Assembly (NCBI GenBank): GCA_963854625.1
Contig: CAWKZY010000005.1
Coordinates: forward strand, 10,028-74,027
DNA length: 64,000 nucleotides
DNA from: Gammaproteobacteria bacterium
GTDB taxonomy: Bacteria > Pseudomonadota > Gammaproteobacteria > Pseudomonadales > Pseudohongiellaceae
Reading direction: 5' to 3'
In this document: positions 1-14,104 of the stretch, one piece after another
Layout: every line of letters starts with the position of its first letter
How positions within the stretch are numbered: position 1 is the first letter of the stretch
Made by a program: the position numbers and the translations under genes
Notes under the pieces: generated by a model
Seen by the model: only the letters and a program-made list of their open reading frames with translations
Databases searched by the model: none
What the model was told of the DNA's origin: nothing

Positions 1-84
1 CTATCCAAGGCTGAAGAGCCAGTGGATGCGCATTGGTCTGTAACGGTTGTGTGGGCTGATTAAGACTTCGGTCCTAATGTGAGC

Positions 85-1734
85 CTAGCCAGAAACAACA
101 TACTCAACGCCTGTTTGTGCCAGCCCTACCAGATCAATCGATGTAGTATTCAAGCTATGATCAGCAGCAACTATGGCTAGACCGGCTGCAGTATAGGTAC
201 CATTATCAATGAGAGCCGAATACTGACTGATATTATCGGCTGGCGTAGGTGGTCCGATCAGATTACCCCAAATCATTTCAACCACTGATAATGAGCTTGC
301 ATTAGGCCCCAAAACCACGTCAAGTGCAGTCTGCATTAGCTGTTCATAGGTCATTCCGTCGTCAAGAAGCTTTAATCCTGCACCAACATATGTTTTATTT
401 GTCGCTTGATCTTTTCCAAGAAGTAGCCCTACCAGTTTAATTGTCTTCCCTGCGTTACCATCAAGGTCTAGAGCTATGTGCTTGTCATTAAACTTAAGGC
501 GTTCAATGTTACTGAGAGTATCTTTATCAGTTCCCGAAGCAATATTCCAAAAAGTACCCGACTTAACCAAAGAAACATCTGTAAAATTTTCCGTGTAAAC
601 AGCCTGATCAATACCCGCATCACCATCTATGGTATCTCCGCCTAACCCTCCCGTAATCACATTGTTAGAGGAATTCCCAATGATCACATCCGCACCAGAA
701 CCGGTGATTACATTCTCAATAACAGCACCAAAAGCAATGCTAAAGTTATTTTTTAAAAACCAGCCGTTAAAAGGAATAGTACTGTAAGAACCGTCTGTAA
801 GATTGATTGTGCTACTCTCTGAAAAGTTACTAAAGTTTAAAGTATCAGTGCCGCCTCCATCCCATATGAGTTTTATCTCAGGAATATTAGGATCAAAAGT
901 ATAAGTTGTATTTCCACTGTTGAATTTTGTATTTGGACCATACAGGTATTGCAATGCCGCTACATCATATGCCATTGGCGTGGAGGGTATTGCATACGAC
1001 TTTTCATCTATAATTTTTATAGAAGCGCCATCAACAGAAAACTCACCTGCCATAACTGTGTACTCTCGAGAATTTTTATCTTCAGGAAAAGGTATGTCAG
1101 GATTATCGTTAGGATGTTCAACACCAAGCGCATGAAATATCTCATGATACATAACGGTCAAATCTCCAATAGGAGTTTGAGAACCAATACTTTGTGAGTT
1201 TTCGGCGATAGCTACAAGCCCAGTTGAAAAATCTGATTTCGCATAACTTTTATTGAACCAAATGTCTCCTCCTCGCGGGTCACTAAACGGAGGATCTGCT
1301 GTTGCTACAACGCCTGGTATAAAGTTCCCCTGCTCATCAGTAATCGTATTTATAGCAAGCCTAATAGTTCCAACTTTTTCTTCAGTCTCAATAACTTCTA
1401 CAAAAGCTACATTGATGTATTTCTCAATTTCCTTAAACGCTGCACGAGTGTCTTCTTGTTGTTTCGAACTAAAGGGTATCGGGGAAATTTCACCGACGTC
1501 ATCCTGATAAGCATATCCTGCTAAAGAATTACTGCCCGTCGGAAAACTATATGAAATCACTGTTTTGGATTGATCCATTACTCCTTCCGAAAGAAACGAG
1601 TCGCTCATCCATTTGATAGGAGCGCCTTCTCTTTTATTGAGTAGTGAATCTATATATATTATTCCGGAAAGGTTTTTTAATTCAATTTCTTGCCCCGACT
1701 CCGAGTATGTTTGCTTGTTAATTTTTGAAGGCAC
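85..1734 (-). CDS. Serralysin-like (metzincin) zinc metalloprotease with RTX-type calcium-binding repeats
   Basis: 549-aa ORF. HEIFHALGVEHP matches the HExxHxxGxxH metzincin zinc site. Gly/Asp-rich repeat run GSGADVIIGNSSNNVITGGLGGDTIDGDAGID. No N-terminal signal peptide, as expected for type I secretion substrates. Confidence 0.75.
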   Translation of the reverse strand: MPSKINKQTYSESGQEIELKNLSGIIYIDSLLNKREGAPIKWMSDSFLSEGVMDQSKTVISYSFPTGSNSLAGYAYQDDVGEISPIPFSSKQQEDTRAAFKEIEKYINVAFVEVIETEEKVGTIRLAINTITDEQGNFIPGVVATADPPFSDPRGGDIWFNKSYAKSDFSTGLVAIAENSQSIGSQTPIGDLTVMYHEIFHALGVEHPNDNPDIPFPEDKNSREYTVMAGEFSVDGASIKIIDEKSYAIPSTPMAYDVAALQYLYGPNTKFNSGNTTYTFDPNIPEIKLIWDGGGTDTLNFSNFSESSTINLTDGSYSTIPFNGWFLKNNFSIAFGAVIENVITGSGADVIIGNSSNNVITGGLGGDTIDGDAGIDQAVYTENFTDVSLVKSGTFWNIASGTDKDTLSNIERLKFNDKHIALDLDGNAGKTIKLVGLLLGKDQATNKTYVGAGLKLLDDGMTYEQLMQTALDVVLGPNASSLSVVEMIWGNLIGPPTPADNISQYSALIDNGTYTAAGLAIVAADHSLNTTSIDLVGLAQTGVEYVVSG

Positions 1735-1824
1735 TTATTTCTCCAGCTTAAAGGTTCTGTATATTTCTGTTCATGTTCGACTAAAACTAAAAGAAAGCCA
1801 AAAAGCCAATCTAAGTTGACCTTT

Positions 1825-1870
1825 TAGTAGGTAGGTTAGTAGGTAGGTTAGTAGGTAGGTTAGTAGGTAG
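1825..1870. repeat. 12-bp tandem repeat (TAGTAGGTAGGT), about 3.8 copies
   Basis: Read directly: tagtaggtaggt repeated head to tail from 1825 to 1870, lying 90-135 nt upstream of the protease start codon at 1734 (minus strand). Confidence 0.9.
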
Positions 1871-2187
1871 AATTGATTATTTAACCTAAGTTCTTGATTT
1901 TATTACTTGTTCGATACCGCCCACTGGTACCATTGCAATAAACTAGCTATCCGACTGCTTTTTATAAACACCATTCTTCATATTATTGAACTAGTTCAGA
2001 ATGGCTCATGCTGTTTACCCGCTCAATTATCTTGGCATAGGCTTTTGTTGTAGCAGCAAGACTAGCCGCAGGGATCTCCTCAGTTGCTTCAATATTGGTA
2101 TGCAGTAATATGCCACATGCATCAACACAATTGAAGGCACAAGGTCGACGATAGTTCTAATAATAAAATCCTGTTTAGCGTAACGCA

Positions 2188-3213
2188 TTAGTTAGCTATG
2201 TTGATCTCGGTTCCGCCAGCAGGAAGCTCCAACGTCATGCCATCCTCGGCCAGATGCCAGTTGAGATTTCCGCTTTCCTCAATGCCCTCCTCAATGCCCT
2301 CGGTGAAGGTCTCTAGAAATTCCGGCATACCTGCCTGTGTAAGATGGCTCAGCACCAGCATCCCCACACCCGCCGATTGGGCCAATTCTGCGGCTTCTCT
2401 GGGTTCGGTATGATAGGTTACTGTGTCAGCCAGCATTGCAGCACCTCTTGGGTTTATTCTGCTCGCTCTTCGGGAAGCCGAAATCTGCATGGCATTGCTC
2501 TGCGCCTCATGGATGAGTACATCGGCGCCATTAGCGGCCGCACCCAGTGGCGGCCAGGCTATGGTGTCACCGCTAATCACCACAGAGCGGCCCTTGTAAT
2601 CAAACCGATAACCGAAAGCTGGGCTGACCGGATCATGGGCTACGCGGATTGCCGTGATGCTCAGTTCACCAACTTTTAAGGCCAGCGCCGTTCCAGCAGG
2701 GTCCGGAATTTCGACGACTTTCGACCGAATCTCTGCAGCATCCAGCGGGAACTTGTTATCTTCTTGTTCATGATGCGCTTTACGGAATACCCGGTCTCGT
2801 TCGTAGACGAGGTTGAATCCATCGGCCAGATTGTCCACACCATCCGGCCCGATCACCGTCAATGGCTCGACCCGCCCATTGATCCAGCTCTGTTCAGCCG
2901 CCTCACCCACACCAGCAATATGATCGCTGTGCAGGTGAGTGATGAAGATCGCCTTCAAACTAGTTACCGGTGCTCGCATTCCACGCAGAGTATTCCAACC
3001 GCCAACTCCATTATCGATCAGATAAAGTGAATCACCCGCCTGAATCGCCGTGCAAGGCTGGGCACGACCAGAACTCGCAAGGGGCCCGCCAGTGCCACAG
3101 AAGAAAACCTTGAGACCATCAAAGCTTTGCGCGTGAGCCGTAAATGGGCTGACAATAGACATCAGGGCCAAAATCAGAACTGAGCTAGCTAATTTACGTG
3201 CATTATTTTTCAT
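2188..3213 (-). CDS. Secreted MBL-fold metallo-hydrolase (RNase Z/beta-lactamase superfamily)
   Basis: 341-aa ORF. Signal-peptide-like N-terminus ending AHAQ. THLHSDHIAG matches the HxHxDH metallo-beta-lactamase motif. RBS AAGGAG lies upstream of the ATG. Confidence 0.8.
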   Translation of the reverse strand: MKNNARKLASSVLILALMSIVSPFTAHAQSFDGLKVFFCGTGGPLASSGRAQPCTAIQAGDSLYLIDNGVGGWNTLRGMRAPVTSLKAIFITHLHSDHIAGVGEAAEQSWINGRVEPLTVIGPDGVDNLADGFNLVYERDRVFRKAHHEQEDNKFPLDAAEIRSKVVEIPDPAGTALALKVGELSITAIRVAHDPVSPAFGYRFDYKGRSVVISGDTIAWPPLGAAANGADVLIHEAQSNAMQISASRRASRINPRGAAMLADTVTYHTEPREAAELAQSAGVGMLVLSHLTQAGMPEFLETFTEGIEEGIEESGNLNWHLAEDGMTLELPAGGTEINIAN

Positions 3214-3310
3214 TTATACTCCTTCGTAAGTAGGCGCCGCAAATGGCTGATTACCAGACCCGTTCCTGTAATATCCGCGACCACTGCTAAATCGCATCAC
3301 ATCCGAGATT

Positions 3311-3417
3311 GTAGCGAGGAATACGCCGAGACAATAACGACAAGTCCCGGACTTGTTTTAGGGATTCTAGCTAGAAACGTTTGTGGTCGACACGAGCAAA
3401 TTAAGCATCCCCTCCAA
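3311..3417. repeat. Copy 1 of a conserved intergenic element of about 110 nt (hairpin plus palindrome TTCTAGCTAGAA)
   Basis: About 83% identical over the first 70 nt to 10350..10419, in the same orientation. Hairpin ACAAGTC-ccg-GACTTGT at 3340-3356. Perfect 12-bp palindrome at 3365-3376. Shared 3' box TAAGCA(T)CCCCT. Confidence 0.7.
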
Positions 3418-3495
3418 TCTTACTGAATAATAAAGGGGACGGATTTATTTTCCTGATTTGATACAACCGCTAAATAAAATTTATTTATTCTCTTT

Positions 3496-4536
3496 TTACT
3501 TAGAGAGTGAATATTTTCGCAAAGCCATGCCTGCTGTGAGTGAGCCATAGATATTTCCATCACTGTCCGCAACCACACCCTCCTGACTCCCGCTCGCATC
3601 GGGGTCCTGAATAAACAACATCACACTGCCATCTCTCACATTCCCGACGCGAATACCTTCTTCAAAACCGGGATTAGATTGTGCTGTGTTTGAAGATGAG
3701 GAATCCGCGACATACAGCAGGTCATTGTCATCGATGAACATTCCGCTGGGTCGACCGAATTGTTTCCACTCGTCGAGAAAGTTACCCAACTCATCAAAAA
3801 TAAGTACTCGATCGTTACCACGATCACCAACAAATAATCTGCCAGCGGAGTCCATAGCTAGTGCATGAGGCGTATGGAACTGATTCGGCCCCTCGCCAAA
3901 TGATCCCCAAGTCATGAGATAGTCGCCATGAGAGTCAAACTTCACGATGCGAGCGTTTGATCTAGGCCCATGTCCGTCACCGACAAAGATGTCGCCACCC
4001 GGCGCTACGAGCACTGCCGATGGCATATTGAATGTGTCTGGACCGTCGCCAGGAATACCGGGACTACCCAGGGTCATGAGCAATTCGCCTTCAGGACTGA
4101 ACTTGAAGACCTGATGCCCCTTGGCCTCGCTAACAGTATCGATGTCACGTGAGCCAACATCATCTGTTACCCAAACATTGCCACCTCTGTCTACAGTCAA
4201 ACCATGAGGACGCTGAAACAGGTCTTCACCGAAACTGAGAAGGTGATTGCCCTGCCGGTCGAATTTCATAATTGGGGCAAGATCTGAACCTCGGCAATCT
4301 TGGGCACCGCAGCGATCAAAGACCCAGAATGCCGAACCATCCGGGTGAATTCCCAGGCCGGAGGTGGCACCGACTGACCTTCCCGGTGGCAGTTTGAAGA
4401 AAGCCTCGTCGATGCTGTAGTCATCGCTGGGGGTGAAACGGGCATCCGTGACCTGAGAGAATGCAATAACAGAAGAAAACAGCGAAAATATAACCGCTAC
4501 ACTCTGATGGACTTGGGAATTGTTCAGTTTTGGCAT
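3496..4536 (-). CDS. NHL-repeat beta-propeller protein, peptidyl-alpha-hydroxyglycine alpha-amidating lyase (PAL)-like
   Basis: ORF 3496..4584; the start was moved to the internal ATG at 4536 (MPKLNN...), which precedes a signal-like segment and avoids overlap with the upstream gene. Motifs PHGLTVDRGGNVWVTD, HQVFKF, IFVGDGHG..NARIVKF, QFHTPHALA and LFVGDRGNDRVLIF are colinear with my recollection of the animal PAL domain. Confidence 0.7.
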   Translation of the reverse strand: MPKLNNSQVHQSVAVIFSLFSSVIAFSQVTDARFTPSDDYSIDEAFFKLPPGRSVGATSGLGIHPDGSAFWVFDRCGAQDCRGSDLAPIMKFDRQGNHLLSFGEDLFQRPHGLTVDRGGNVWVTDDVGSRDIDTVSEAKGHQVFKFSPEGELLMTLGSPGIPGDGPDTFNMPSAVLVAPGGDIFVGDGHGPRSNARIVKFDSHGDYLMTWGSFGEGPNQFHTPHALAMDSAGRLFVGDRGNDRVLIFDELGNFLDEWKQFGRPSGMFIDDNDLLYVADSSSSNTAQSNPGFEEGIRVGNVRDGSVMLFIQDPDASGSQEGVVADSDGNIYGSLTAGMALRKYSLSK

Positions 4537-4573
4537 AATTGAAATGCTCGGTTCACGCTGATAAAAGGCTGTA

Positions 4574-6043
4574 TTATTGCACACGTACTACACCTACACT
4601 CCCTTCGACTTCGATTGTAGTTCCCCATTGATCTGACAGGCGTGCAACACGTTCCAAAATTAGTTGAGCATGACTCTCTTTGGCAATGCGCGGAATGCCA
4701 AGCTTTGAGTCAGGACCGTTTATTCCTAACTCTATTGGGTAAAGGCGCACCTCTTTTAGAACACCGTCTTCATAATGGCTGATTGCAACCACGCTTTCCA
4801 AAGACTGACTGGAACCGCCGAAATTTCGGGAAAACTGCTGCATTCTTCTTTGTGGGTCTACATCGGCAGCACCGACAACCAGCTCCAATTCCCACTGTGC
4901 TTCCCGAAAAAATTCACCCAGACCATAGAAGATTGGCTTACCTTCGTAAATTTCAATGCCGCGTAGTGTTTGCACTCCCGTGCCAACAAAGGCATCGGCC
5001 CCTGCATCAATAGCCTGATGGGCCAGGTCCACATAGAACTGCGGAGGGCGCGTGCTCAAATGCTGAAACTCCACGACCGACTCACTCTGATGAATGTGAG
5101 CGGCGGCAGTAACGAAATCCCCAAGCTGGCGGGCATTGCGGATATTCCTGAGCATGCGATCCACGTCATTGCCATTCAAGGTATACGCAACTGAGCCTGG
5201 AATTTCATCGCCCTGAGTTACTCGATACCTGGGGTCATTCCGTCCGGAACTCGAGGCAGGAATGCTTATACCCGTATCGGGCGAAGCACTGGCTACGGGG
5301 CGCGGATTGTCATAGTTGTCTCGGTGTTCCAGAAATCCCTGTCGAACTTGCAGCAGTGCATCGTACTGCTGCTGGGATACTAAAATAGTCTCTCTATAGT
5401 TGAGCATGTTGAGACCGGGTCTTCCTCCCAGATTTCCTTTGCGAGATGTTGCCGCGAGTCGATAGTGTTCTGGAAAGATGGGGGCATGGGCGCCAACTAA
5501 CGCTGCGCGCCCCTTTGCCAATTCGAGAAAAGCCGGTGCGGCCGCTTCTTGTAGGTTTCTACCGCTGCCCGCATGAATTATGCCTGCTTGGTCCAGCAAA
5601 GCGTTCGTTGAAAACATGCCCTCGAACTCAGAATCAAGGAGATGATTCTGAGCGCGATTGACCATGTCGAACCCCATCAATTTGAGATCTGCTGCGACCT
5701 TATGGCTACCGACAAAACCATTGAGGGGGCCATCGAATTCTCGCAGATTCGCCAACTCCCCCTCCATGTTTGCCACTGCAAGATCGGCACTTCTTATCAA
5801 TTCAAAAACTGCCTGTACTTCTGGGTCGGCGAGCCGGGATGCGGGACGGCGTATCATCAAGTCACCAACACTTGCGAGAACGAATTCTCCCGGCATGGTC
5901 ATTGCCCGATCCCTATCGGCAAGCGGCGGCAAATCAGTCTGGGCTGATAGGTTGACTGAAAGGCCACTCGATACTGCTAAAACAAGTGTAACTATATGCG
6001 ATGCGACTCGGCCTGGCCGTCTCTGTAATTTATTAGCTTTCAT
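4574..6043 (-). CDS. CapA/PGA_cap-like (metallophosphatase-fold) secreted protein
   Basis: ORF 4574..6061; likely start MKANKL at 6043. Colinear CapA-like pattern: SVGDLM..R, ADLAVANMEG, GFDMVNRAQNH, AGSGRN, GKPIFYGLGEF. Some canonical His positions appear substituted. Confidence 0.55.
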   Translation of the reverse strand: MKANKLQRRPGRVASHIVTLVLAVSSGLSVNLSAQTDLPPLADRDRAMTMPGEFVLASVGDLMIRRPASRLADPEVQAVFELIRSADLAVANMEGELANLREFDGPLNGFVGSHKVAADLKLMGFDMVNRAQNHLLDSEFEGMFSTNALLDQAGIIHAGSGRNLQEAAAPAFLELAKGRAALVGAHAPIFPEHYRLAATSRKGNLGGRPGLNMLNYRETILVSQQQYDALLQVRQGFLEHRDNYDNPRPVASASPDTGISIPASSSGRNDPRYRVTQGDEIPGSVAYTLNGNDVDRMLRNIRNARQLGDFVTAAAHIHQSESVVEFQHLSTRPPQFYVDLAHQAIDAGADAFVGTGVQTLRGIEIYEGKPIFYGLGEFFREAQWELELVVGAADVDPQRRMQQFSRNFGGSSQSLESVVAISHYEDGVLKEVRLYPIELGINGPDSKLGIPRIAKESHAQLILERVARLSDQWGTTIEVEGSVGVVRVQ

Positions 6044-6093
6044 AAAGTTCCCGGGGTGCAATTTCAGACACCTATTTATTGCTTTGTCTGGTC

Positions 6094-7158
6094 TTATCTC
6101 TGCCTAGTAGCAGTAGCGCAAGAAGAAAACAATTCGGTACGAACTTCCACCCCCTTTTCTGCCAGCCGCGCCTGATCTGTACATGACACATTAGTATGTC
6201 TCAGCTCGACGATATCTCCAGGCCCGATACCCGGGTTTTCAAACAGCGCTTGAATAGTAGTTAAATCAGGATTGAAGCGAAGATCAAGCTGCATCAGGTT
6301 CGTCAAGCCACTCAGTGGCGTTATATCGGTTATGTCATTGCCAGTAAGTTCTAGATACTCGAGAGTGATGAGTCCGCGCAATGAGCTGAGATCGGCGAAC
6401 GAGTTGGCCGCTAGTCGCAGTTCAATCAGTGATGTCAAACCACTCAACGGTGTCAGATCGCTTATATCCTGAGTATGAATATTAAGATCCACTAGCTTGG
6501 TTAGTTTCGCCAGAGGACTAATATCGGTAACGGCATTTGTAAAAAGCAATCCTGTCGCCCCCATATGCGTCCTAGGTTTTTGCCCACCTATGAAGTCGCC
6601 GTGACGATGCATGCGAAGTACTCGCAATTCTGTAAGCTTACTCAGAGCACTGATATCGCTTAAAGGGTTTTCGGCGATACGCAGATCAACCAGTTTGGTC
6701 AAATCCCGGAAGGGGCTGATGTCAGAAATCCAGTTTGTATGAAGGTTCAAATGCGTCAATTCGGTAAGTTCATCTAAAGGGCTAATGTCGGAGAGGCCTC
6801 GATTTGATAGATTGAGGTTAGTTAAACCTTTGAGGTTTTGTATTCCGGAAAGGTCATGAAATATGTGTTCCGGGTCAACCCATTCAGGAGATCCTGAAAC
6901 CGATCTTCTCGCTCCTCCACCGGGGGCACGCAACGTCGCTAATCGCGCGGCTCGACCGCAGCTTAAAGTTTCTTGTGGCCCAAGTGACAAAGCCTCGCGC
7001 ACCTCTTCCTCCAAAACTGCATCGGCAAAAGTCACAATGTCGGAGGAAGCATGATCTCGACAGTTATCAGTGGGCTGCAAAACTTGCTGAGCCCAAGCCC
7101 CGGAACAAAGAAGAACCGACAGTACAATTAAATACATTTGCTTAGAAAGCTGGCTCAT
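6094..7158 (-). CDS. Secreted leucine-rich repeat (internalin-like LRR) protein
   Basis: 354 aa with a signal peptide (…CSGAWAQ). At least 8 tandem repeats of about 22 aa of the form LTxLxxLxLxxNxIsDISPL. Confidence 0.8.
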   Translation of the reverse strand: MSQLSKQMYLIVLSVLLCSGAWAQQVLQPTDNCRDHASSDIVTFADAVLEEEVREALSLGPQETLSCGRAARLATLRAPGGGARRSVSGSPEWVDPEHIFHDLSGIQNLKGLTNLNLSNRGLSDISPLDELTELTHLNLHTNWISDISPFRDLTKLVDLRIAENPLSDISALSKLTELRVLRMHRHGDFIGGQKPRTHMGATGLLFTNAVTDISPLAKLTKLVDLNIHTQDISDLTPLSGLTSLIELRLAANSFADLSSLRGLITLEYLELTGNDITDITPLSGLTNLMQLDLRFNPDLTTIQALFENPGIGPGDIVELRHTNVSCTDQARLAEKGVEVRTELFSSCATATRQR

Positions 7159-7245
7159 ATTGCGGTTCCTTTCATAGATATAGTTAGTTCTTGTCTATAT
7201 TTCATATTTCAATTATATAAAGACATTGCAGCAACCTCGAAAAAA

Positions 7246-8052
7246 TTACTGATTCATTTTTGAAATCACCCCTATTCTGGTGTCGGGATTAGCATCATCA
7301 CCTGGGTCATGAAAGAAGCCCGCTGCTACGCTAACCGAAATTGCTGGACTGGTCTCAGCGACACAGGCAATGACATGATTATCCGGGTCATCATCAGCGA
7401 GGATGTGAGGATGCACGGAATTACCGTCACTAAGAAGAATCGATATAGCTGTTCGCTGAGCCTCGGCAAGATCAGCACCCTGTGGTCCAGAAACACCGCC
7501 TTCCCAAGTTAGCTGAACTGCTTGTGCGGTATCGATTGGACATTCCCCTTTAAGCCCTAAAGTATTGGGAGCAAAGCGCTCGGCAAGCACCAGGCTGGGT
7601 CCAAATGCGAGGGGCGTCACCTTTTCTATTTTCAAACCGACCAGTGAATTCCCATCGACATCTTCGAGTTGTTCCACAATCTCAACACTGAGCGGCAGTG
7701 AATCGTCGACACTAAAAGGTCCAATAAGAAGCACCGTGCGCTTCTCGAGCGTCTCTAAAGCAGGTCGCAAAGTCGCACATAGTGGAGTAACAATCTCACC
7801 GGAGGTGGTCTCAACTGCAAAGGCAGCTGCAGAAACTGATGCACTATTTATTTGAACAGAAAAGGTAACGGGCATTCCATCCTGACCACCAGCAGGCGGC
7901 ATTCCACATAGTCGAGTTGCTCGTGGCGGTAAGGGATCAAGCCCGTGATACGCTGATAGAATGCGCATCTCTTTCTCACTTTCCGCTATTTCCCCCTGCG
8001 CTTCAGCAGCAACGAAAAAGCAGAATAAGAATAGTGTTGTGGATAATTTCAT
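7246..8052 (-). CDS. Hypothetical secreted protein
   Basis: 268-aa ORF with a clear signal peptide (MKLSTTLFLFCFFVAAEAQ). No recognisable motif. Same strand and spacing as its neighbours. Confidence 0.5.
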   Translation of the reverse strand: MKLSTTLFLFCFFVAAEAQGEIAESEKEMRILSAYHGLDPLPPRATRLCGMPPAGGQDGMPVTFSVQINSASVSAAAFAVETTSGEIVTPLCATLRPALETLEKRTVLLIGPFSVDDSLPLSVEIVEQLEDVDGNSLVGLKIEKVTPLAFGPSLVLAERFAPNTLGLKGECPIDTAQAVQLTWEGGVSGPQGADLAEAQRTAISILLSDGNSVHPHILADDDPDNHVIACVAETSPAISVSVAAGFFHDPGDDANPDTRIGVISKMNQ

Positions 8053-8106
8053 TAGTTATCTCGTTACATTGTTCGGCTGTGGATGTGCACTTAAAAAACC
8101 AGTGAA

Positions 8107-10077
8107 TCAAGGCTCGTAACTGTAAATCCTTAATCGTCCCGGCACATCTGAACCGGAGATCGCCACCGCAAGATACTGTACGCCGTCGATAGCGTAGGTC
8201 ATTGGGCTTCCAGTCTGTTGCGCTGGCATGGATAGGCTGCCTAGTTGTCTGCCGGTAAGTTTGTCATAGGCTCGCAGCAAGGCTTCCTGCTCGCCATTAG
8301 CGTTTGTATAGCTGCCACCGTCGCCGGCTATAAGGAGTGTTTTGGTTACTAAAACACCTACACGCCCAGCTTGCCCGGTACGGGGAATATCTAGGCCGGC
8401 CAGTGCAGGATGATTGCGAATAGAATCCGGAGTCTCACCATGCACAACATCCCAAAGCTTTTCACCCTCGTTCAAGTCCAGTGCCACGATCTGTCCGTAA
8501 GGTGGTTTAATTAATGGCAAACCCTCCACATTCAATCGCGGCGCAGTTCTCAATTGCAGATTAATATAGTCCATGTCTGAGCGGTCCGGACGATTACTCA
8601 TAGACATTCGGCCCACATCAGACTTGCTAAAAATATACATGATGCCGGATTCAGGATCGACTGCGCCTCCAGGCCAGTTGGCCCCACCGGTTTGTGAGGG
8701 CATGAACAGTGTGCCGAACGTACCATCGTCGGCTTCCGCCAGAGACGGAGGCATATATATGTCGCCGTAGCGGTACCGAGACAGTATCTCTCGTGCCTTG
8801 GCTTTCAGCTGCGGTGTGAAATCAATTAACTCATCGTCGTTGAGCCCTTGGCGAGCGAACGGTGGAGGTCTCACAGGAATGGGCTGAGTGGGAGAAAGTC
8901 GCTCACCCGGTATATCGGATGCGGGTACTGGCACTTCTTCTATTTCAAACAGAGGCTTTCCGGTCCCTCGGTCGAAGACGAAGGTGAACCCCTGTTTAAC
9001 TGTTTGCACTAAGGCGGCTCTGATTTTTCCATTGATCGTCAAGTCAAGAAGCATTGGCGCAGACGGAATATCCCAATCCCACACGTCATGATGAGTAGTT
9101 TGAAAATGCCACTTTCGCTCACCCGTTGCGAGATCAAGCGCCACCACGCTGTTAGTAAAAAGATTGTCTCCATGTCGATGACCACCATAGGAATCCCCTG
9201 TGGCGGTTTCAGTAGGCAGATATACTGCATTAAGCACGGGATCGATAGTCATCTGAGCCCAGGCGCCACCATAACCCGTATAAGTCCAGGAATTATTCAG
9301 CCAGGTATCATTTCCATATTCACCACCCTGAGGAATACTGTGAAAAATCCAAAGCCTCTTGCCTGTTCGCGCATCGTAGCCACGCACATGGCCCTTCGGT
9401 TTTTCTCGGCTAGTTGGCATTCTGCCAGCTCGAAACGCCGATCCGATAACGACGACGCCATTGGCAACTATAGGAGCGGCATGCAACCCTACTTCACCTG
9501 TTTTGGGGTCCAACTCCTGATCGAACTCTTGTTTTAAATCTACAATACCATCGAGCCCAAAATCCTCAATGCGTTCTCCGCTTGCCGCATCCAGTGCTAT
9601 CATCTGGTAGCCAGGTGTCACATAAATGATTCGGCCCTTGTCACTGCCATCATTCCACCATGCCAGTCCTCTGCCTGACAATCGACGGGGAGCGTTAGAC
9701 GCGCGCTCTCCCTCATCAAGGCGAGACACCCAGAGAATCTCTCCGCTCTGCGCATCCAAAGCAACAATAGCTCGCCTGCTTCCAGCGGTGGTATAAATTG
9801 TTCGATTTACCATCAATGGTGTTGATTGAAAATTGAACTCAGGGCTAGACCCGAAATTACTCGTGTCGAATTCCCAAGCTATCTCTAGTTGGTTGAAATT
9901 TTCACCATTAATTATGTCCAACGGAGAATATCGGGTGCTCGCTAGGTCGCCTCCATAGGTGCGCCACTCCTGGTCCTGAGCTTGTGAGTGATTCATCGTG
10001 CTTATTGACAAGAAAATGAATAAGAACATTAGCAGAAGTGTATGTGCTTTCTTGTGGAGGCTGAGAGTGATAATCAT
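8107..10077 (-). CDS. Periplasmic PQQ-dependent dehydrogenase (quinoprotein beta-propeller)
   Basis: 656 aa with a signal peptide. The N-terminal signature WRTYGGDLASTRYSPLDIINGENFNQLEIAWEF is typical of PQQ dehydrogenases, and W-containing propeller repeats recur throughout. No vicinal Cys-Cys, so it is not of the methanol/ethanol-dehydrogenase subtype. Confidence 0.85.
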   Translation of the reverse strand: MIITLSLHKKAHTLLLMFLFIFLSISTMNHSQAQDQEWRTYGGDLASTRYSPLDIINGENFNQLEIAWEFDTSNFGSSPEFNFQSTPLMVNRTIYTTAGSRRAIVALDAQSGEILWVSRLDEGERASNAPRRLSGRGLAWWNDGSDKGRIIYVTPGYQMIALDAASGERIEDFGLDGIVDLKQEFDQELDPKTGEVGLHAAPIVANGVVVIGSAFRAGRMPTSREKPKGHVRGYDARTGKRLWIFHSIPQGGEYGNDTWLNNSWTYTGYGGAWAQMTIDPVLNAVYLPTETATGDSYGGHRHGDNLFTNSVVALDLATGERKWHFQTTHHDVWDWDIPSAPMLLDLTINGKIRAALVQTVKQGFTFVFDRGTGKPLFEIEEVPVPASDIPGERLSPTQPIPVRPPPFARQGLNDDELIDFTPQLKAKAREILSRYRYGDIYMPPSLAEADDGTFGTLFMPSQTGGANWPGGAVDPESGIMYIFSKSDVGRMSMSNRPDRSDMDYINLQLRTAPRLNVEGLPLIKPPYGQIVALDLNEGEKLWDVVHGETPDSIRNHPALAGLDIPRTGQAGRVGVLVTKTLLIAGDGGSYTNANGEQEALLRAYDKLTGRQLGSLSMPAQQTGSPMTYAIDGVQYLAVAISGSDVPGRLRIYSYEP

Positions 10078-10349
10078 GATTATTCTCGTCTAATAATTCT
10101 TTTTTATATTTTCAAATCAAATCATATCTGCTCGTTCATATAACGCAAACTACACCGGCTTGTTTCGGTGTTTGTGTCCATTCCATGGCCGCTGCGCCAA
10201 ATTCCATAACGCGTGAATCAGCGCTTCATCATGAAGCCTAATTTTAGGCATGCCAGTAGTAGCGCAAAAACCTGTGTCAAACGCTAAATTCCATTGTTTG
10301 TCTTTGTCAGTCTAGCGGATCATAGCCACTTCTTATTACATCAAGAACC

Positions 10350-10460
10350 GTAGCGAAGAAAACGGCGAGACAGTGACGACAAGTCGCTGACTTGTCTTAC
10401 AGATTCCAGCTAGAAAGAGTGTACTCTAGAAAAAAGAAGTAACCTAAGCACCCCTTACAA
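10350..10460. repeat. Copy 2 of the conserved intergenic element of about 110 nt
   Basis: Aligns with 3311..3417. Hairpin ACAAGTC-gct-GACTTGT has the stem conserved and the loop changed. Palindrome is degenerate (TTCCAGCTAGAA). 3' box TAAGCACCCCT. Ends about 30 nt before the start codon of the PHM-like gene. Confidence 0.7.
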
Positions 10461-10491
10461 GCACATTAGAGAACAAGCCCCTGGAGAGGTA

Positions 10492-11835
10492 ATGCAAATG
10501 AAACATACCAAATTATTAGTCGCGGCTGCTGCACTGCTTGGACTGCAGGGCGTATTCGCCCAGGAGCAGTTCACCTACAACGAGCACGTGGCCCAAATTA
10601 TCAATGAGAATTGTGTGGTATGTCACCAGGAAGGCGGCATCGGCCCTATGCAGCTCACCAATTTCGACCAAGTGCGCCCCTGGGCTCCGCTGATTCAGCT
10701 AAAGGTAGCCAATCGTGAAATGCCACCCTATGCCTATGATCACGGCATCGGCATTCAGGATCTGGTTGGCGACTGGCGTATGCAGCAGGATGAAATCGAT
10801 ACCATAGTGGCCTGGGTGAATGCTGGCTCTCCTCGTGGAAATATTGACACAACTGCAGCTTTTGCTCAGGTGAAAACCCCAAGCCAATGGAACTTCGAAG
10901 CCGAACTTGGCTCGCCGGACCTGGTCGTGCCTTCATCCTCCTATGATGTCCCCGCCAATGGTAATGACCTGTGGATAAGGGAGATTGTTGACCCCAGAGT
11001 AACAGCGGCAGTTGTAGGGCGCTGCATTAAGGCAGTTCAGGTGAAACCTCGCGGAGATGCAGCGGCGGTAGTGCACCACGCAAATTCCATCATCTTTATC
11101 GAAGACGAATACGGTGAGCTTCGCCGAAATGGCATGCTCACTGAATACGCCATGGGCAAATGGGGCGAGAAAGTGCCTGACGATGTTTGTCGTACCCTGC
11201 CCCCCGGCGCACAGATTCAATGGAATATTCATAATTTCCCAGGTGGCGTCGGTGCGACTGCCCGGGGCGAGATTATCGAGGACGTCGTGGTTGAAATCGG
11301 CCTGTGGTTCCACAACGAAGATTTCAGCGAACAGGAAGGCGTCTACCGACAGGACCTAACGAGCTATCAGATCGAGCAACAGGGCGATCTTGTGATTCCA
11401 CCCAACGGCTATCAAATGACCCAGGGATTTCACTCCTTTGACCATCCTGTGCGTATCGATAGTTATCAGCCCCACGGTCACCTGCGCATGAATGCCGCCT
11501 CGCTAGAAATTTTCTATCCGGAAACCGGCCGTACGGAGCCGGTCAGTCAGATCTCCAAATGGTCCGCCACCTGGCATCACAACCATATCTACGATCCCGA
11601 AGCGGCACCGCTGCTGCCAGCCGGCGCGGTTCTGGTACTAAAGCAGTGGTATGACAACACCGCTAACAACCCCTACAACCCGGATCCTGATATGTGGGTG
11701 GTGGGTGGTAGCCGCACCGGCGATGAAATGACTCACGCCTGGATCGCCATTACGCACCTAGACGATAAAGGCTATGACAAACTGGTAACCGAAAGAGAAG
11801 CCAAACAGAAACGCTCTCTAGCAGGCAGTGACTGA
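10492..11835 (+). CDS. PHM/DBH-like type II copper monooxygenase with an N-terminal CxxCH (heme-c type) module
   Basis: 447 aa with a signal peptide. CVVCH at nt 10612-10626. VKPRGDAAAVVHH (His-His at 11074-11079), IHNF, LVIPP, YQPHGHLRM (HxH at 11473-11481) and GGSRTGDEMTH (Met at 11728-11730) are colinear with the CuH (HH..H) and CuM (HxH..M) ligands of peptidylglycine alpha-hydroxylating monooxygenase as I recall them. An alternative start at ATG 10498 has better RBS spacing. Confidence 0.65.
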   Translation: MQMKHTKLLVAAAALLGLQGVFAQEQFTYNEHVAQIINENCVVCHQEGGIGPMQLTNFDQVRPWAPLIQLKVANREMPPYAYDHGIGIQDLVGDWRMQQDEIDTIVAWVNAGSPRGNIDTTAAFAQVKTPSQWNFEAELGSPDLVVPSSSYDVPANGNDLWIREIVDPRVTAAVVGRCIKAVQVKPRGDAAAVVHHANSIIFIEDEYGELRRNGMLTEYAMGKWGEKVPDDVCRTLPPGAQIQWNIHNFPGGVGATARGEIIEDVVVEIGLWFHNEDFSEQEGVYRQDLTSYQIEQQGDLVIPPNGYQMTQGFHSFDHPVRIDSYQPHGHLRMNAASLEIFYPETGRTEPVSQISKWSATWHHNHIYDPEAAPLLPAGAVLVLKQWYDNTANNPYNPDPDMWVVGGSRTGDEMTHAWIAITHLDDKGYDKLVTEREAKQKRSLAGSD

Positions 11836-11927
11836 TAAAGAAAGCTAAGCAATAATTGCGAAAGAAACACTGGTAATAAAAGTCACCGGGGAAGTTCGTG
11901 CACTACATAAAATTTTAGAATCATCGA

Positions 11928-12263
11928 TTAATAGCCAATCGAAGTAATGTAGGTATTGTCGAAGTATGGAATGTGATATTTGCGCAACACAGAAATGTAG
12001 TCCCAGTAGATGCTTTTCCCGGAGCCCTCCTCCAGATAATCCTCCATTCGCTCTGTTGCTAATTTGGCGACATGTTTAGAACGCTTACTTGGTATGGGAA
12101 TATTATGAAGAGCAGCATACTCATATTGAGCACTTATCTGAGTCGCTTTTACTATAGCCTTGTCTTTATCGGCTTTTTAGGTGGATTTAGATATCCATTT
12201 TTCGCTGATAACAAGCTGCGCATGCCAGCGTTTACTGCTGTCTTGTTTACAGATGTATAGTTG
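11928..12263 (-). pseudogene. Tyrosine-recombinase (phage-type integrase) N-terminal remnant
   Basis: Minus-strand frame is open from 12263 to 11931, with no start codon, one in-frame TAA (12177-12179) and no catalytic domain. Translation …SKRWHAQLVISEKWISKST*KADKDKAIVKATQISAQYE…ERMEDYLEEGSGKSIYWDYISVLRKYHIPYFDNTYITSI fits the arm-binding/SAM-like N-terminus of island integrases (W.A.V..G....SKSF.TK.EA..WA…). Confidence 0.45.
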
Positions 12264-12376
12264 CTAAGTAATGTCGTGCCGATTCACTTGTTGTGGCATA
12301 ACATGCAAGGTCGGTATTTGGCGTGTTCCGAAGCTGGTAAAGAAGAGCACAATATACTGATTATTAACAAGTATTA

Positions 12377-12443
12377 TAGACACACTGAATCCAAAATCCG
12401 GTTCCTTCACAGGAGTGGCGGCTCAAGTCCGCTCACCGGGGCC
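12377..12443 (+). pseudogene. 5'-truncated tRNA-Leu(CAA)-like fragment (D-arm 3' half to acceptor 3' strand); not an intact tRNA
   Basis: TAGACAC, then an anticodon region ..TCCAAAA.., a long variable-arm hairpin TCCT-tcac-AGGA, a T-arm GGCGG-CTCAAGT-CCGCT, and the acceptor strand CACCGGG-G-CC. It resembles the class II tRNA-Leu 3' two-thirds (E. coli leuZ …TAGACAC…GGTTCAAGTCCCGCTCCGGGTACCA). No complementary 5' acceptor strand lies upstream. C33 and C54 deviate from the universal U/T. Confidence 0.55.
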
Positions 12444-12592
12444 TTTTTAGGCTTTTTTAATTACAAATAGCTTAAGTTCTTAACATAATAGCCAATATTG
12501 ATTAAGTAAGGTTACGAAACTTAACAATCTAGACTTTGTGATTAGCAGATCCTTGGTCGGACAATTTAAACAGCCACAGGAGATGCTAATTC

Positions 12593-12760
12593 ATGAGTTT
12601 TGACGAAGAAGACAGCAAATACACAAGTGATAAAAATGACGACGATAAAGCTAAGACATTTTTCGGGTTTGAAGTTGGTGATTCGGTAACCTACGGTGTT
12701 GTTATAGTGCTGACGATCATATTTATTTATCAGGTTTCTGGAGCGACAGCGGTTCTTTAG
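12593..12760 (+). CDS. Possible small membrane protein (55 aa)
   Basis: An ATG lies downstream of an AGGAG-type RBS. Acidic N-terminus followed by one hydrophobic segment (YGVVIVLTIIFIYQV). Below the ORF-track size cutoff, so found by eye. Confidence 0.3.
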   Translation: MSFDEEDSKYTSDKNDDDKAKTFFGFEVGDSVTYGVVIVLTIIFIYQVSGATAVL

Positions 12761-12960
12761 CTAAGGCTCAAGCTTTCTTTATAGATAGCGCCTCATAAAA
12801 TTTTTCCCCACTTTTCCACATTAACGGCATTGCAAATGATTCTTTTGCGAGAGGTCTTCTCTGTGCCTGTTCAGTTTTTGCCTAGCGTGTTAGATTACGC
12901 CTCCTAAAATTTACTCTGAAAACTCACTCAAAGAGTGAGCCCAACCCCGAAGGAATCGGT

Positions 12961-14058: not shown

Positions 14059-14070
14059 ATTGGCTAAGCT

Positions 14071-14104
14071 AAATCGGCTTTTGCGCGAAGCGCAGAGCCG
14101 ATTT
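14071..14104. terminator. Long hairpin between convergent leuB and cimA (candidate bidirectional terminator)
   Basis: AAATCGGCTTTTGCGC-gaa-GCGCAGAGCCGATTT gives a stem of about 15 bp with one bulge and A/T-rich ends on both sides. Confidence 0.6.

What the first reader, a model, noticed from the sequence alone, without database searches (positions are those of the whole stretch)
2188..11835. GC-rich block of secreted enzymes pairing a split PHM-like/PAL-like couple with a PQQ dehydrogenase: candidate undescribed periplasmic glycine-terminus oxidation system
Seven consecutive genes all start with signal-peptide-like N-termini: an MBL hydrolase, a PAL-like NHL propeller, a CapA-like protein, an LRR protein, a 268-aa unknown, a PQQ dehydrogenase and a PHM-like copper monooxygenase. 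They lie in a stretch that looks GC-richer than its flanks. Spot counts on single 60-nt lines gave about 57% here, about 42% in the serralysin gene and about 45% in valS. In animals, PHM and PAL are the two catalytic halves of peptidylglycine alpha-amidating monooxygenase. Here separate homologues of both lie about 6 kb apart. The PHM-like protein carries a CxxCH heme-c-type motif and is divergently transcribed from a PQQ dehydrogenase, an enzyme class that normally donates electrons to c-type cytochromes. That suggests a two-step C-terminal glycine hydroxylation and cleavage pathway driven by PQQ/cytochrome electrons rather than ascorbate. Its role could be peptide amidation, or catabolism of N-acylglycines or peptides. 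I know of no characterised bacterial system of this kind. No pqqABCDE genes and no obvious Gly-terminated precursor ORF occur in the window.
Basis: partly seen in the sequence, partly recalled or inferred. Interest (0 to 1): 0.8.

Follow-up and report, generated by a model that had tools for sequence, protein, structure and literature searches.

The report
Haem-fused PHM-like copper monooxygenase with PQQ dehydrogenase
A marine bacterium encodes a secreted copper monooxygenase of the animal peptide-amidating (PHM) type fused to a cytochrome c. It sits beside a PQQ dehydrogenase and a PAL-like enzyme, and it belongs to a very large bacterial enzyme family that has not been characterised and whose substrate is unknown and probably not glycine-ended peptides.

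Summary
The seven ORFs are real, and all have signal-peptide-like N-termini. The GC rise is real but small: 50.2% against 45.8%, not 57%.

**Protein 7 (10492-11835).** No Pfam or PDB sequence search recognises the PHM part. It is nevertheless a PHM/DBH-superfamily protein:
- The top 29 Foldseek hits are all PHM or DBH.
- A deep profile against rat PHM gives 95.3% probability.
- 19 of 61 distant relatives hit Cu2_monoox_C.
- All six copper ligands are conserved (H195/H196/H247 and H328/H330/M413), behind a CxxCH/Met haem c domain.
- PHM's glycine-carboxylate binding residues are not conserved.

**The NHL protein.** It is 39% identical to rat PAL over 165 residues. The catalytic Tyr is His and one Zn-ligand His is Glu in the whole family.

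**Gene context.**
- In close relatives the order cytPHM, PQQ-DH, unk268, (LRR, PGA_cap), NHL is co-directional. In the window, protein 7 is inverted.
- A natural NHL-PQQ-DH fusion exists.
- The wider family (about 11,000 representative clusters) usually forms tandem arrays. These often sit next to a GMC flavoprotein dehydrogenase and have no NHL gene.

**Best reading.** A dehydrogenase feeds electrons through haem c to a copper monooxygenase acting on an unknown substrate.

The parts
10492..11835 (+). Secreted cytochrome c - PHM/DBH-like binuclear copper monooxygenase (447 aa; 'cytPHM', protein 7).
   Evidence: Top 29 Foldseek PDB hits are all PHM or DBH, prob 1.00. hhalign of the 61-sequence profile against rat PHMcc gives 95.3%, E=2.2e-8, 230 columns. 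19/61 relatives hit PF03712 and 4/61 hit PF01082. No direct Pfam or PDB sequence hit for the PHM part.
10492..10563 (+). Signal peptide of protein 7 (residues 1-24, ending VFAQ).
   Evidence: Hydrophobic 12-mer with Kyte-Doolittle mean 2.21, K/R upstream. By inspection only.
10612..10626 (+). CxxCH haem c attachment motif (C41, C44, H45). The likely distal ligand M77 is at 10720-10722.
   Evidence: C41, C44, H45 and M77-P78-P79 are invariant in 61 members sharing 23-57% identity. 39/61 relatives hit Cytochrome_CBB3.
11074..11232 (+). Predicted CuH site: H195 and H196 (11074-11079) and H247 (11230-11232).
   Evidence: Aligned to PHM H107, H108 and H172 by hhalign. His in 61/61, 60/61 and 61/61 family members.
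11473..11730 (+). Predicted CuM site: H328 (11473-11475), H330 (11479-11481) and M413 (11728-11730).
   Evidence: Aligned to PHM H242, H244 and M314. Conserved in 61/61, 61/61 and 59/61.
10027..10491 (.). Divergent intergenic region holding one inversion breakpoint (between about 10027 and 10371). Bases 10372-10491 travel with protein 7.
   Evidence: blastn against 11 related loci: window 3499-10026 aligns in reverse and 10372-11835 aligns forward to the same locus. At least six independent assemblies carry the window arrangement.
8107..10077 (-). Secreted eight-bladed PQQ quinoprotein dehydrogenase (656 aa) with no cytochrome domain of its own.
   Evidence: PF01011 E=4e-179, full length. Best PDB hits are quinohaemoprotein ADHs, aligned only to their propeller. 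Lies directly downstream of protein 7 orthologues in 11/17 loci.
7246..8052 (-). Secreted 268-aa protein of unknown family (unk268).
   Evidence: No Pfam or NCBIfam hit. Found in 11/17 orthologous loci. AF2 pLDDT 60. The C-terminal half is an Ig-like sandwich. Foldseek gives nothing below 1e-3 and only weak CopC hits.
6094..7158 (-). Secreted leucine-rich-repeat protein (354 aa). Optional member of the block.
   Evidence: LRR_4 E=1e-25. Present between unk268 and PGA_cap in some relatives and absent in others.
4574..6043 (-). Secreted PGA_cap (CapA) / MslH-like metallophosphatase-fold protein (489 aa). Optional member.
   Evidence: PF09587 E=1e-39. NCBIfam MslH E=1e-50, below cutoff. Only solved relatives are 8GQ9/8ITH, E=7e-42, full length. 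Also lies next to a 72%-identical PQQ-DH in L087.
3496..4536 (-). Secreted PAL-like NHL beta-propeller (346 aa from ATG 4536; 362 aa from GTG 4584) with a variant His/His/Glu + His active site.
   Evidence: NHL E=1e-20. 39% identity over 165 aa to rat PAL. Active-site columns in 20 homologues. Fused to the PQQ-DH in P0523. The same variant lies next to a PQQ-DH in L092.
2188..3213 (-). Secreted MBL-fold hydrolase (341 aa). Peripheral member with a weak link to the rest.
   Evidence: Lactamase_B_2 E=4e-17. Best PDB hits are an MBL-fold 'arylsulfatase' and PNGM-1. An orthologue is near protein 7 only in L017.

Best explanation
The block is a periplasmic oxidative module. Its centre is a new architectural variant of the PHM/DBH copper monooxygenases.

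Shown:
- Protein 7 is exported.
- It carries one c-type haem (CxxCH, with Met77 as the likely distal ligand).
- It has a two-domain PHM fold with complete CuH (3 His) and CuM (2 His + Met) ligand sets.

Inferred mechanism:
- The fused haem takes the role that ascorbate plays for animal PHM and passes single electrons to CuH and CuM.
- CuM activates O2 and hydroxylates a C-H bond.
- The neighbouring soluble PQQ dehydrogenase has no cytochrome domain of its own. It is the likely dedicated electron donor to that haem.
- It may also oxidise a product of the pathway.
- The PAL-like NHL propeller has a conserved His/His/Glu metal site plus a His where PAL has its catalytic Tyr. It works together with the PQQ dehydrogenase, since the two are fused in one natural protein.
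- It most plausibly cleaves or hydrolyses a labile hydroxylated or oxidised intermediate.

The substrate is unknown. The pocket lacks PHM's glycine-carboxylate binding residues, so it is probably not a glycine-extended peptide. unk268, LRR, PGA_cap and MBL are accessory proteins of unknown role. In the window genome, protein 7 has been inverted, so it is now transcribed divergently from its partners.
For: PHM identity.

Haem domain.

Export.

Operon-like order in relatives: cytPHM, then 95-154 bp, PQQ-DH, 11-107 bp, unk268, 53-100 bp, (LRR, PGA_cap), NHL. The PQQ-DH follows protein 7 orthologues in 11/17 loci.

A second, unrelated periplasmic dehydrogenase takes the same position. In 16 loci of the wider family, a Gluconate_2-dh3 small subunit plus a GMC flavoprotein lies directly downstream of cytPHM genes, with no cytochrome subunit gene adjacent to the pair in those gene maps.

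A PQQ-DH orthologue (63% identity) lies 3.3 kb from a 36%-identical cytPHM in a distant genome.

The PQQ-DH has no cytochrome domain, unlike its closest solved relatives.

Precedent: GMC oxidoreductases and PQQ pyranose dehydrogenases are demonstrated electron donors for LPMO copper monooxygenases, and a bacterial c-type cytochrome domain can reduce an LPMO (PMC10916295).

NHL to PQQ-DH link: in-frame fusion P0523, and the L092 neighbour with the same variant site.

NHL active site conserved in 20/20 homologues.
Against: - No biochemical data exist. No paper on such proteins was found in seven searches.
- The AF2 model is only moderate (pLDDT 66, TM 0.31-0.54 to PHM), so ligand geometry could not be checked.
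- Only about a third of the family loci sampled have an adjacent dehydrogenase.
- Of the seven distant PQQ-DH loci with usable flanks (L087, L088, L090-L094), only one has a cytPHM nearby. The pairing is therefore not obligatory, and the haem could be fed from the general periplasmic cytochrome pool.
- The PQQ-linked synteny comes from fairly close relatives (76-91% identity), so shared ancestry may inflate it.
- In the window itself the genes are no longer co-transcribed.
- Public pipelines read the PQQ-DH and NHL pair as glucose dehydrogenase plus lactonase. That reading explains the fusion without involving protein 7.
Confidence: 0.5

Rival explanations
1. Protein 7 hydroxylates the alpha-carbon of a C-terminal glycine (peptide or N-acylglycine). 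The NHL protein then cleaves the carbinolamide to an amide plus glyoxylate. Electrons come from the PQQ-DH through the haem.
For: PHM fold with all copper ligands. The NHL protein is 39% identical to PAL, with H585, H690 and R706 kept. The orthologous NHL lies in the same gene string in 8/17 loci, and an NHL paralogue sits directly upstream of cytPHM in L006-L009, L014, L059 and L078. The PGA_cap protein's only solved relative acts on a peptide C-terminus, going by the NCBIfam MslH name.
Against: PHM R240, N316 and Y318 are Gln, His and Trp, and Arg is not among the six commonest residues at the R240 position. PAL Tyr654 is His, H786 is Glu and D787 is Gly in the whole NHL family. Most cytPHM loci have no NHL gene. 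H585, H690 and R706 sit at positions that generic NHL repeats also often fill this way (alignments). No Gly-terminated ORF was found.
Confidence: 0.12
2. Ordinary periplasmic sugar oxidation. The PQQ-DH is an aldose dehydrogenase and the NHL protein is the lactonase for its product. Protein 7 serves only as the cytochrome c that carries electrons to the respiratory chain. Its PHM-like domain is unrelated to this pathway.
For: JGI names are 'quinoprotein glucose dehydrogenase' and 'sugar lactone lactonase YvrE'. The NHL-PQQ-DH fusion and the L092 pair fit a dehydrogenase plus lactonase. The NHL protein has a weak SGL hit of 28.7 bits against a cutoff of 26.3. The PQQ-DH is closest to the glucose/quinate/shikimate NCBIfam model, though below its cutoff.
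Against: The NHL protein has no SMP30, gluconolactonase, Drp35 or PON hit in the PDB at E<=1e-3, whereas it matches PAL at 3e-20. Its conserved His/His/Glu + His site resembles PAL's Zn site; from my own knowledge, propeller lactonases use carboxylate/Asn Ca sites instead. All six copper ligands of protein 7 are under strict conservation, so the domain is functional and not vestigial. A plain electron carrier would not need a 330-residue copper domain.
Confidence: 0.2
3. There is no system. The block is a rearrangement-prone stretch of unrelated secreted proteins, and their adjacency in a few related genomes reflects recent common ancestry.
For: Protein 7 is inverted in the window. LRR, PGA_cap and MBL come and go between relatives. 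The block lies in a different genomic context from the relatives, with no leuB, leuA or serralysin near them. Five of the seven distant PQQ-DH loci with usable flanks show neither an NHL gene nor a cytPHM gene.
Against: The fusion of orthologues of two block genes. NHL is retained next to PQQ-DH/unk268 even where LRR and PGA_cap are lost, as in L013 and L018. PQQ-DH/NHL and PQQ-DH/cytPHM proximity recurs in distant genomes. Gaps in relatives are short and co-directional.
Confidence: 0.1

Closest known systems
Peptidylglycine alpha-hydroxylating monooxygenase (PHM) and dopamine beta-hydroxylase: the non-coupled binuclear copper monooxygenases (Pfam PF01082 + PF03712)
   Same: Two beta-sandwich domains. 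CuH is His-His...His and CuM is His-x-His...Met, with matching local motifs (KPR...VHH, HY/HN, PHxH, GDEM) and similar spacing. Extracytoplasmic location.
   Different: Only 12-14% identity. Invisible to the Pfam models and to PDB sequence searches. Has an N-terminal c-type cytochrome domain in place of dependence on ascorbate or the DOMON domain of DBH. The substrate-carboxylate residues R240, N316 and Y318 are replaced. The window's subfamily has seven extra invariant His residues. Bacterial, and often present as 2-5 tandem paralogues.
Peptidyl-alpha-hydroxyglycine alpha-amidating lyase (PAL; PDB 3FVZ)
   Same: NHL six-blade-type propeller. 39% identity over 165 collinear residues. Equivalents of H585, H690 and R706 are present in all 20 homologues.
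   Different: Catalytic Tyr654 is His. Zn ligand H786 is Glu. Ca-site D787 is Gly. It is a separate protein whose proven partner, by fusion, is a PQQ dehydrogenase and not a PHM domain.
LPMO redox-partner systems: CDH or other GMC (AA3) oxidoreductases, PQQ pyranose dehydrogenase (AA12) and the CjX183 cytochrome c domain donating electrons to a copper monooxygenase
   Same: A secreted dehydrogenase of the PQQ or GMC class, a cytochrome and a copper monooxygenase acting outside the cytoplasm. The precedent is as summarised in PMC10916295. The same two dehydrogenase classes lie next to cytPHM genes.
   Different: The copper enzyme here has the PHM fold with two copper sites, not an LPMO histidine brace. 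The cytochrome is fused to the monooxygenase and not to the dehydrogenase. The PQQ enzyme is the eight-bladed type (PF01011); AA12 enzymes, from my own knowledge, belong to a different PQQ-enzyme family. There is no CBM and no evidence of a polysaccharide substrate.
Type I quinoprotein dehydrogenases with a dedicated soluble cytochrome c (methanol dehydrogenase with cytochrome cL; ethanol dehydrogenase ExaA with cytochrome c550 ExaB). This comparison rests on my own knowledge.
   Same: A soluble periplasmic eight-bladed PQQ enzyme with no haem domain of its own, encoded next to the gene for a c-type cytochrome.
   Different: Here the adjacent cytochrome carries a 330-residue copper monooxygenase domain. 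The electrons are therefore predicted to end in O2 activation and not in the respiratory chain.

Membership tests
PHM/DBH copper type II monooxygenases | Two-domain beta-sandwich (PHM/PNGase F-like) fold | tested here: met
   Foldseek against the PDB: the top 29 hits are all PHM or DBH, prob 1.00, E 1.7e-7 to 1.6e-5, about 320 aligned columns. TM is only 0.31-0.54 because the model is moderate.
PHM/DBH copper type II monooxygenases | CuH site: three His (PHM H107, H108, H172) | tested here: met
   H195, H196 and H247 are aligned by hhalign. His in 61/61, 60/61 and 61/61 family members.
PHM/DBH copper type II monooxygenases | CuM site: two His + Met (PHM H242, H244, M314) | tested here: met
   H328, H330 and M413 are aligned by hhalign. 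Conserved in 61/61, 61/61 and 59/61.
PHM/DBH copper type II monooxygenases | Scores above threshold against Pfam PF01082 / PF03712 | tested here: not met
   No hit even at E=10 for the window protein. Among relatives, 19/61 hit PF03712 and 4/61 hit PF01082 at E<=0.01. Profile-profile comparison against rat PHM gives 95.3%.
PHM sensu stricto (peptidylglycine specificity) | Glycine-carboxylate and backbone binding residues R240, Y318, N316 | tested here: not met
   They are Q326, W417 and H415. Arg is not among the six commonest residues at the R240 column in A1 or A2.
PHM/DBH copper type II monooxygenases | Binds two Cu and hydroxylates C-H with O2 and an external reductant | not testable with these tools
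   Needs purified protein.
PAL (peptidyl-alpha-hydroxyglycine lyase) | NHL beta-propeller collinear with PAL | tested here: met
   NHL E=1e-20. PAL 3FVZ E=3e-20 in one collinear stretch. 39% identity over 165 aa.
PAL (peptidyl-alpha-hydroxyglycine lyase) | Zn site of three His (H585, H690, H786) | tested here: not met
   H585 and H690 are kept in 20/20. H786 is Glu in 19/20. A His/His/Glu metal site remains plausible.
PAL (peptidyl-alpha-hydroxyglycine lyase) | Catalytic Tyr654 | tested here: not met
   His in 20/20 homologues; 'DGY' becomes 'DGH'.
PAL (peptidyl-alpha-hydroxyglycine lyase) | Arg706 (binds the substrate carboxylate) | tested here: inconclusive
   Arg in 20/20. The same 'DR' also occurs in a non-catalytic TRIM-type NHL repeat (alignment), so it does not discriminate.
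PQQ quinoprotein dehydrogenases (PF01011) | Full-length eight-bladed PQQ propeller | tested here: met
   PF01011 E=3.6e-179, residues 38-635 matching model positions 1-594 of 595. PDB quinoprotein ADH, MDH and GDH hits. PQQ binding itself is not testable here.
Class I c-type cytochromes | CxxCH haem attachment plus a distal Met | tested here: met
   C41, C44, H45 and M77 are invariant in 61 sequences. Pfam Cytochrome_CBB3 is sub-threshold for the window protein (19.4 bits against 27), but 39/61 relatives hit it, best E=4e-9.
SMP30 / gluconolactonase-type (SGL) propeller lactonases | Match to the SGL family and to solved lactonases | tested here: inconclusive
   Pfam SGL 28.7 bits (cutoff 26.3) with no stretch passing on its own. 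No lactonase among 45 PDB hits at E<=1e-3. JGI names it 'sugar lactone lactonase YvrE'.

The most novel reading that the evidence does not exclude
The cytochrome c-PHM proteins are a very large, unrecognised family of periplasmic copper monooxygenases. They run on dehydrogenase-derived electrons in a closed loop. The monooxygenase hydroxylates a carbon next to a heteroatom. The PAL-like metallo-propeller splits the unstable product and releases an aldehyde or lactone. The PQQ (or GMC) dehydrogenase oxidises that product and returns the two electrons to the fused haem. Net O2-dependent C-N or C-O bond cleavage would then need no external reductant. With 2-5 tandem paralogues per genome in abundant marine Gammaproteobacteria (Pseudohongiellaceae, OM182, SAR86), this would be a previously unseen route for oxidising dissolved organic matter.
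Probability: 0.2. Interest if true: 0.85.

Novelty: new variant of a known kind. Interest (0 to 1): 0.62.

Why it matters
To my knowledge, PHM/DBH-type copper monooxygenases have been characterised only in eukaryotes, where they depend on ascorbate. Here the same two-copper catalytic core sits in a bacterial family of about 11,000 representative clusters at 50% identity. It is fused to a c-type cytochrome. Standard domain models do not detect it, and public records call it 'cytochrome c family protein', 'redoxin' or 'hypothetical'.

If the family is active, three things follow:
- It extends this enzyme class to bacteria.
- It shows a protein-based replacement for ascorbate.
- It points to unknown O2-dependent chemistry in the periplasm of abundant marine heterotrophs.

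It also gives enzymologists a self-contained haem-to-CuH-to-CuM electron-transfer system. That system could be used to study the long-debated inter-copper electron transfer of PHM.

Tried and rejected
- Direct Pfam and NCBIfam scans of protein 7, including at E=10, gave only weak cytochrome c hits.
- phmmer and hmmsearch of protein 7, and of its shallow 50-sequence alignment, against PDB sequences gave nothing or spurious SMC3 hits.
- hhalign of the shallow alignment (Neff 1.7) against PHM gave 0.8% probability. Only the diverse 61-sequence profile worked.
- A global pairwise alignment pointed to H274 as the H172 equivalent, with z of only 2. I rejected this in favour of H247, because H274 is not conserved in the superfamily while H247 is invariant and hhalign aligns it.
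- The PQQ_2 domain fused to one superfamily member (P0266) is a generic BamB-like propeller match. I did not count it as Rosetta-stone evidence.
- unk268: the AF2 model is poor in the N-terminal half, and Foldseek gives nothing below 1e-3. I did not build on the weak CopC hits. hhalign shows unk268 is unrelated to the 317-aa partner (c1) or to other recurrent neighbours of the main family locus.
- Inverted repeats at the inversion boundaries are only short, chance-level matches. The promoter and terminator scan found no more than the shuffled sequences did.
- Rfam and tRNA scans of 1-16000 found nothing.
- Small-ORF scans of both gaps flanking protein 7 found no Gly-terminated ORF.
- Seven literature searches found no paper describing bacterial cytochrome c-PHM proteins. 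The library lacks most subscription journals, so this is weak evidence of absence.
- One Pfam call failed because of wrong coordinates.
- I rejected horizontal-transfer 'island' as an explanation for the GC rise, because GC3 does not differ significantly.

Full report
**Observation**

The seven ORFs are present as described. Pfam and NCBIfam confirm:
- an MBL-fold hydrolase (2188-3213);
- an NHL propeller (3496-4536/4584);
- a PGA_cap protein (4574-6043);
- an LRR protein (6094-7158);
- an unassignable 268-aa protein (7246-8052);
- a full-length PQQ quinoprotein dehydrogenase (8107-10077; PF01011, E=4e-179).

All seven have a strongly hydrophobic N-terminal segment after K/R, followed by a short Q-terminated motif. 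The cytoplasmic neighbours leuB and leuA and the serralysin-like protein do not.

The block is GC-richer than the rest of the window: 0.502 against 0.458. All seven genes lie above the mean of the other 39 (Mann-Whitney p=5e-6). It sits mainly in codon positions 1 and 2, and GC3 does not differ significantly (p=0.16). It therefore reflects protein composition more than foreign origin.

The window comes from an uncultured marine Pseudomonadales / Pseudohongiellaceae-type gammaproteobacterium. Identical gene strings occur in several ocean metagenome assemblies.

**Protein 7 is a PHM/DBH-type copper protein fused to cytochrome c**

Direct searches fail. Pfam gives no hit to the PHM part even at E=10, only sub-threshold cytochrome c matches, and PDB sequence searches give no hit.

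Four independent lines establish the relationship:
1. An AlphaFold2 model (pLDDT 66) searched with Foldseek returns PHM or dopamine beta-hydroxylase as all of the top 29 hits, at probability 1.00 over about 320 columns.
2. An exhaustive profile search finds 11,023 representative clusters. Among 61 diverse full-length members, 19 hit Pfam Cu2_monoox_C and 4 hit Cu2_monooxygen.
3. The 61-sequence profile matches rat PHMcc by hhalign with 95.3% probability (E=2.2e-8, 230 columns). I had first verified that PHM sequence as identical to PDB 4E4Z/1SDW.
4. That alignment places H195/H196/H247 on the CuH ligands H107/H108/H172, and H328/H330/M413 on the CuM ligands H242/H244/M314. These six residues are essentially the only invariant or near-invariant side chains across members sharing 23-57% identity, together with C41, C44, H45 and M77 of the haem domain and a few structural Pro and Trp residues.

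The residues that bind the glycine carboxylate and backbone in PHM are not conserved. R240, N316 and Y318 are Gln, His and Trp here, and Arg is not among the six commonest residues at the R240 column. The window's subfamily also has seven additional invariant histidines that the wider family lacks. Both points suggest a different substrate.

**The NHL protein is PAL-like with a systematically altered active site**

Its best natural, collinear solved relative is PAL. BLASTP against the verified rat PAL sequence gives 39% identity over 165 residues.

In an alignment of 20 homologues:
- the equivalents of H585, H690 and R706 are invariant;
- the catalytic Tyr654 is His in all 20;
- Zn ligand H786 is Glu in 19;
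- Ca-site D787 is Gly in 19.

This is a conserved variant metal site. It is not a decayed one, but it is not canonical PAL either.

**Genomic context**

A scan of 185,579 species genomes returned 80 loci. I compared them by tblastn and by clustering their ORFs. Two contexts emerge.

*Orthologues of protein 7 (76-91% identity, 17 loci).* The order is co-directional and tightly spaced: cytPHM, PQQ-DH, unk268, (LRR, PGA_cap), NHL. The PQQ-DH is directly downstream in 11 loci, unk268 is present in 11, and the orthologous NHL in 8. These are lower bounds because several contigs end early. Where LRR and PGA_cap are missing (L013, L018), NHL still follows unk268.

*The rest of the family.* It forms arrays of 2-5 tandem paralogues behind a conserved secreted 317-aa protein. 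In 16 loci a Gluconate_2-dh3 small subunit plus a GMC flavoprotein dehydrogenase follows. No cytochrome subunit gene lies adjacent to the pair in those gene maps, although enzymes of this type normally have one (my own knowledge). These arrays have no adjacent NHL gene. Six MAGs carry both kinds of locus.

*The window.* Protein 7 plus about 120 bp of its upstream DNA (10372-11840) is inverted relative to all 11 relatives compared. At least six independent assemblies show the same arrangement.

**Links among the partners**

- Homologue search with the PQQ-DH found P0523. This 981-aa protein is a signal peptide plus a full-length orthologue of the window NHL protein (63% identity), fused in frame to the mature PQQ-DH (69% identity).
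- In a distant genome (L092), a 61%-identical PQQ-DH is followed two genes later by an NHL protein with the same His/His/Glu + His variant.
- In another (L090), a 63%-identical PQQ-DH lies 3.3 kb from a 36%-identical cytPHM and its 317-aa partner.
- In L087, a 72%-identical PQQ-DH lies beside PGA_cap and an MBL protein, with no cytPHM.
- Four other distant PQQ-DH loci show none of these links.

The PQQ-DH/NHL pair is therefore the best-supported functional unit. The PQQ-DH/cytPHM link recurs but is not obligatory.

**Mechanism**

The PQQ-DH is soluble and has no haem domain, unlike the quinohaemoprotein ADHs that are its best solved matches. From my own knowledge, such enzymes normally hand electrons to a dedicated c-type cytochrome encoded nearby. 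Here the only adjacent cytochrome is the N-terminal domain of protein 7.

Two unrelated periplasmic dehydrogenase classes (PQQ and GMC-FAD) occupy the position directly downstream of cytPHM genes. Both classes are demonstrated electron donors for another kind of secreted copper monooxygenase, the LPMOs, and a bacterial c-type cytochrome domain can reduce an LPMO (PMC10916295).

I therefore favour a chain from dehydrogenase to haem c to CuH and CuM to O2. The fused haem replaces ascorbate. The PAL-like propeller acts on a labile intermediate together with the PQQ-DH. This is inference; no step has been tested.

The ordinary rival is glucose dehydrogenase plus lactonase plus electron-carrier cytochrome, which is what the JGI names imply. 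It explains the fusion. It does not explain the strictly conserved copper sites or the PAL-type metal site.

It is weakened by the missing substrate-binding and catalytic residues and by the absence of NHL genes from most family loci.

**Other members**

- unk268 is a conserved partner of unknown fold class. It has an Ig-like C-terminal half and no significant structural match.
- The only solved relatives of the PGA_cap protein are 8GQ9/8ITH (E=7e-42, full length). This matches the NCBIfam model for the lasso-peptide C-terminal epimerase MslH, although below its cutoff.
- The MBL protein resembles MBL-fold sulfatase and PNGM-1-type enzymes more than RNase Z.
- Their roles are unknown.

**Novelty**

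Public records name family members 'mono/diheme cytochrome c family protein', 'redoxin domain-containing protein', 'peroxiredoxin' or 'hypothetical'. Seven literature searches found no description of such proteins. I classify the finding as a new variant of a known kind: a haem-c-fused, probably dehydrogenase-driven, bacterial PHM/DBH-type monooxygenase of unknown substrate.

Noticed in passing
L023-L085 (e.g. L040 1-21323, L049, L061): The main locus of the cyt c-PHM family in Pseudohongiellaceae, OM182 and SAR86 MAGs. An MFS gene and one cytPHM lie on the minus strand. A secreted 317-aa protein with no Pfam hit follows on the plus strand, then 2-5 tandem cytPHM paralogues. In 16 loci Gluconate_2-dh3 plus a GMC flavoprotein follow. 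A Met/His-rich 392-aa protein and a cupin lie on the opposite strand.
   Followed up: partly
window 10027-11840: Protein 7 and about 120 bp of its upstream DNA are inverted relative to 11 related genomes. No flanking inverted repeats or mobile-element genes were found. The block also sits in a different chromosomal context (next to leuB/leuA) from its context in the relatives.
   Followed up: partly
L086 815-3760 (protein P0523): A natural in-frame fusion of an NHL (PAL-like variant) domain and a PQQ dehydrogenase. Each part is orthologous to a window gene (63% and 69% identity). The cluster has 17 member sequences, but only one short contig was read.
   Followed up: yes
window 10492-11835 (residues H274, H318, H362, H363, H365, H415, H422): Seven histidines are invariant in the 50-sequence subfamily alignment but not conserved in the wider superfamily. 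They could form an extra metal site or a distinctive substrate pocket.
   Followed up: no
proteins P0145, P0199, P0215, P0222, P0244, P0266, P0166: Distant superfamily members carry N-terminal AhpC-TSA/Redoxin domains (14 of 61), EF-hands (5 of 61) or a second haem-binding domain. These are other built-in redox or regulatory modules in front of the same copper core.
   Followed up: partly
window 85-1734 (-): A serralysin-like metalloprotease, identified by inspection from the HExxHxxGxxH motif and GGxGxD RTX repeats. It has the lowest GC among the first 16 genes listed (0.40; GC3 0.31), in sharp contrast with the adjacent block. It has no signal peptide, which fits type I secretion.
   Followed up: no
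window 11836-12960: A 1.1-kb low-GC gap (about 0.41) between protein 7 and leuB. It holds only a 55-aa ORF (12593-12760) with a hydrophobic C-terminus, which is called as a gene in several assemblies. No Rfam family or tRNA was found.
   Followed up: partly
L087 3201-8971; L092 10001-13775: Distant PQQ-DH orthologues repeat parts of the block without a cytPHM. L087 has PGA_cap (66% identity) plus a Lactamase_B protein plus PQQ-DH. L092 has PQQ-DH, then an HbpS-like protein, then an NHL protein with the same active-site variant.
   Followed up: partly
window 4536-4584: The longest NHL ORF starts at GTG 4584 and overlaps the PGA_cap stop by 11 nt. The same overlap is seen in relatives. Most public gene calls use ATG 4536 (346 aa), which places the signal peptide at the N-terminus.
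   Followed up: partly
L006-L015 upstream of the protein 7 orthologue: Relatives carry, upstream and divergent from cytPHM, a second NHL paralogue (about 44% identity), a secreted 331-aa protein with no Pfam hit and one or two further LRR paralogues. None of these is in the window.
   Followed up: no
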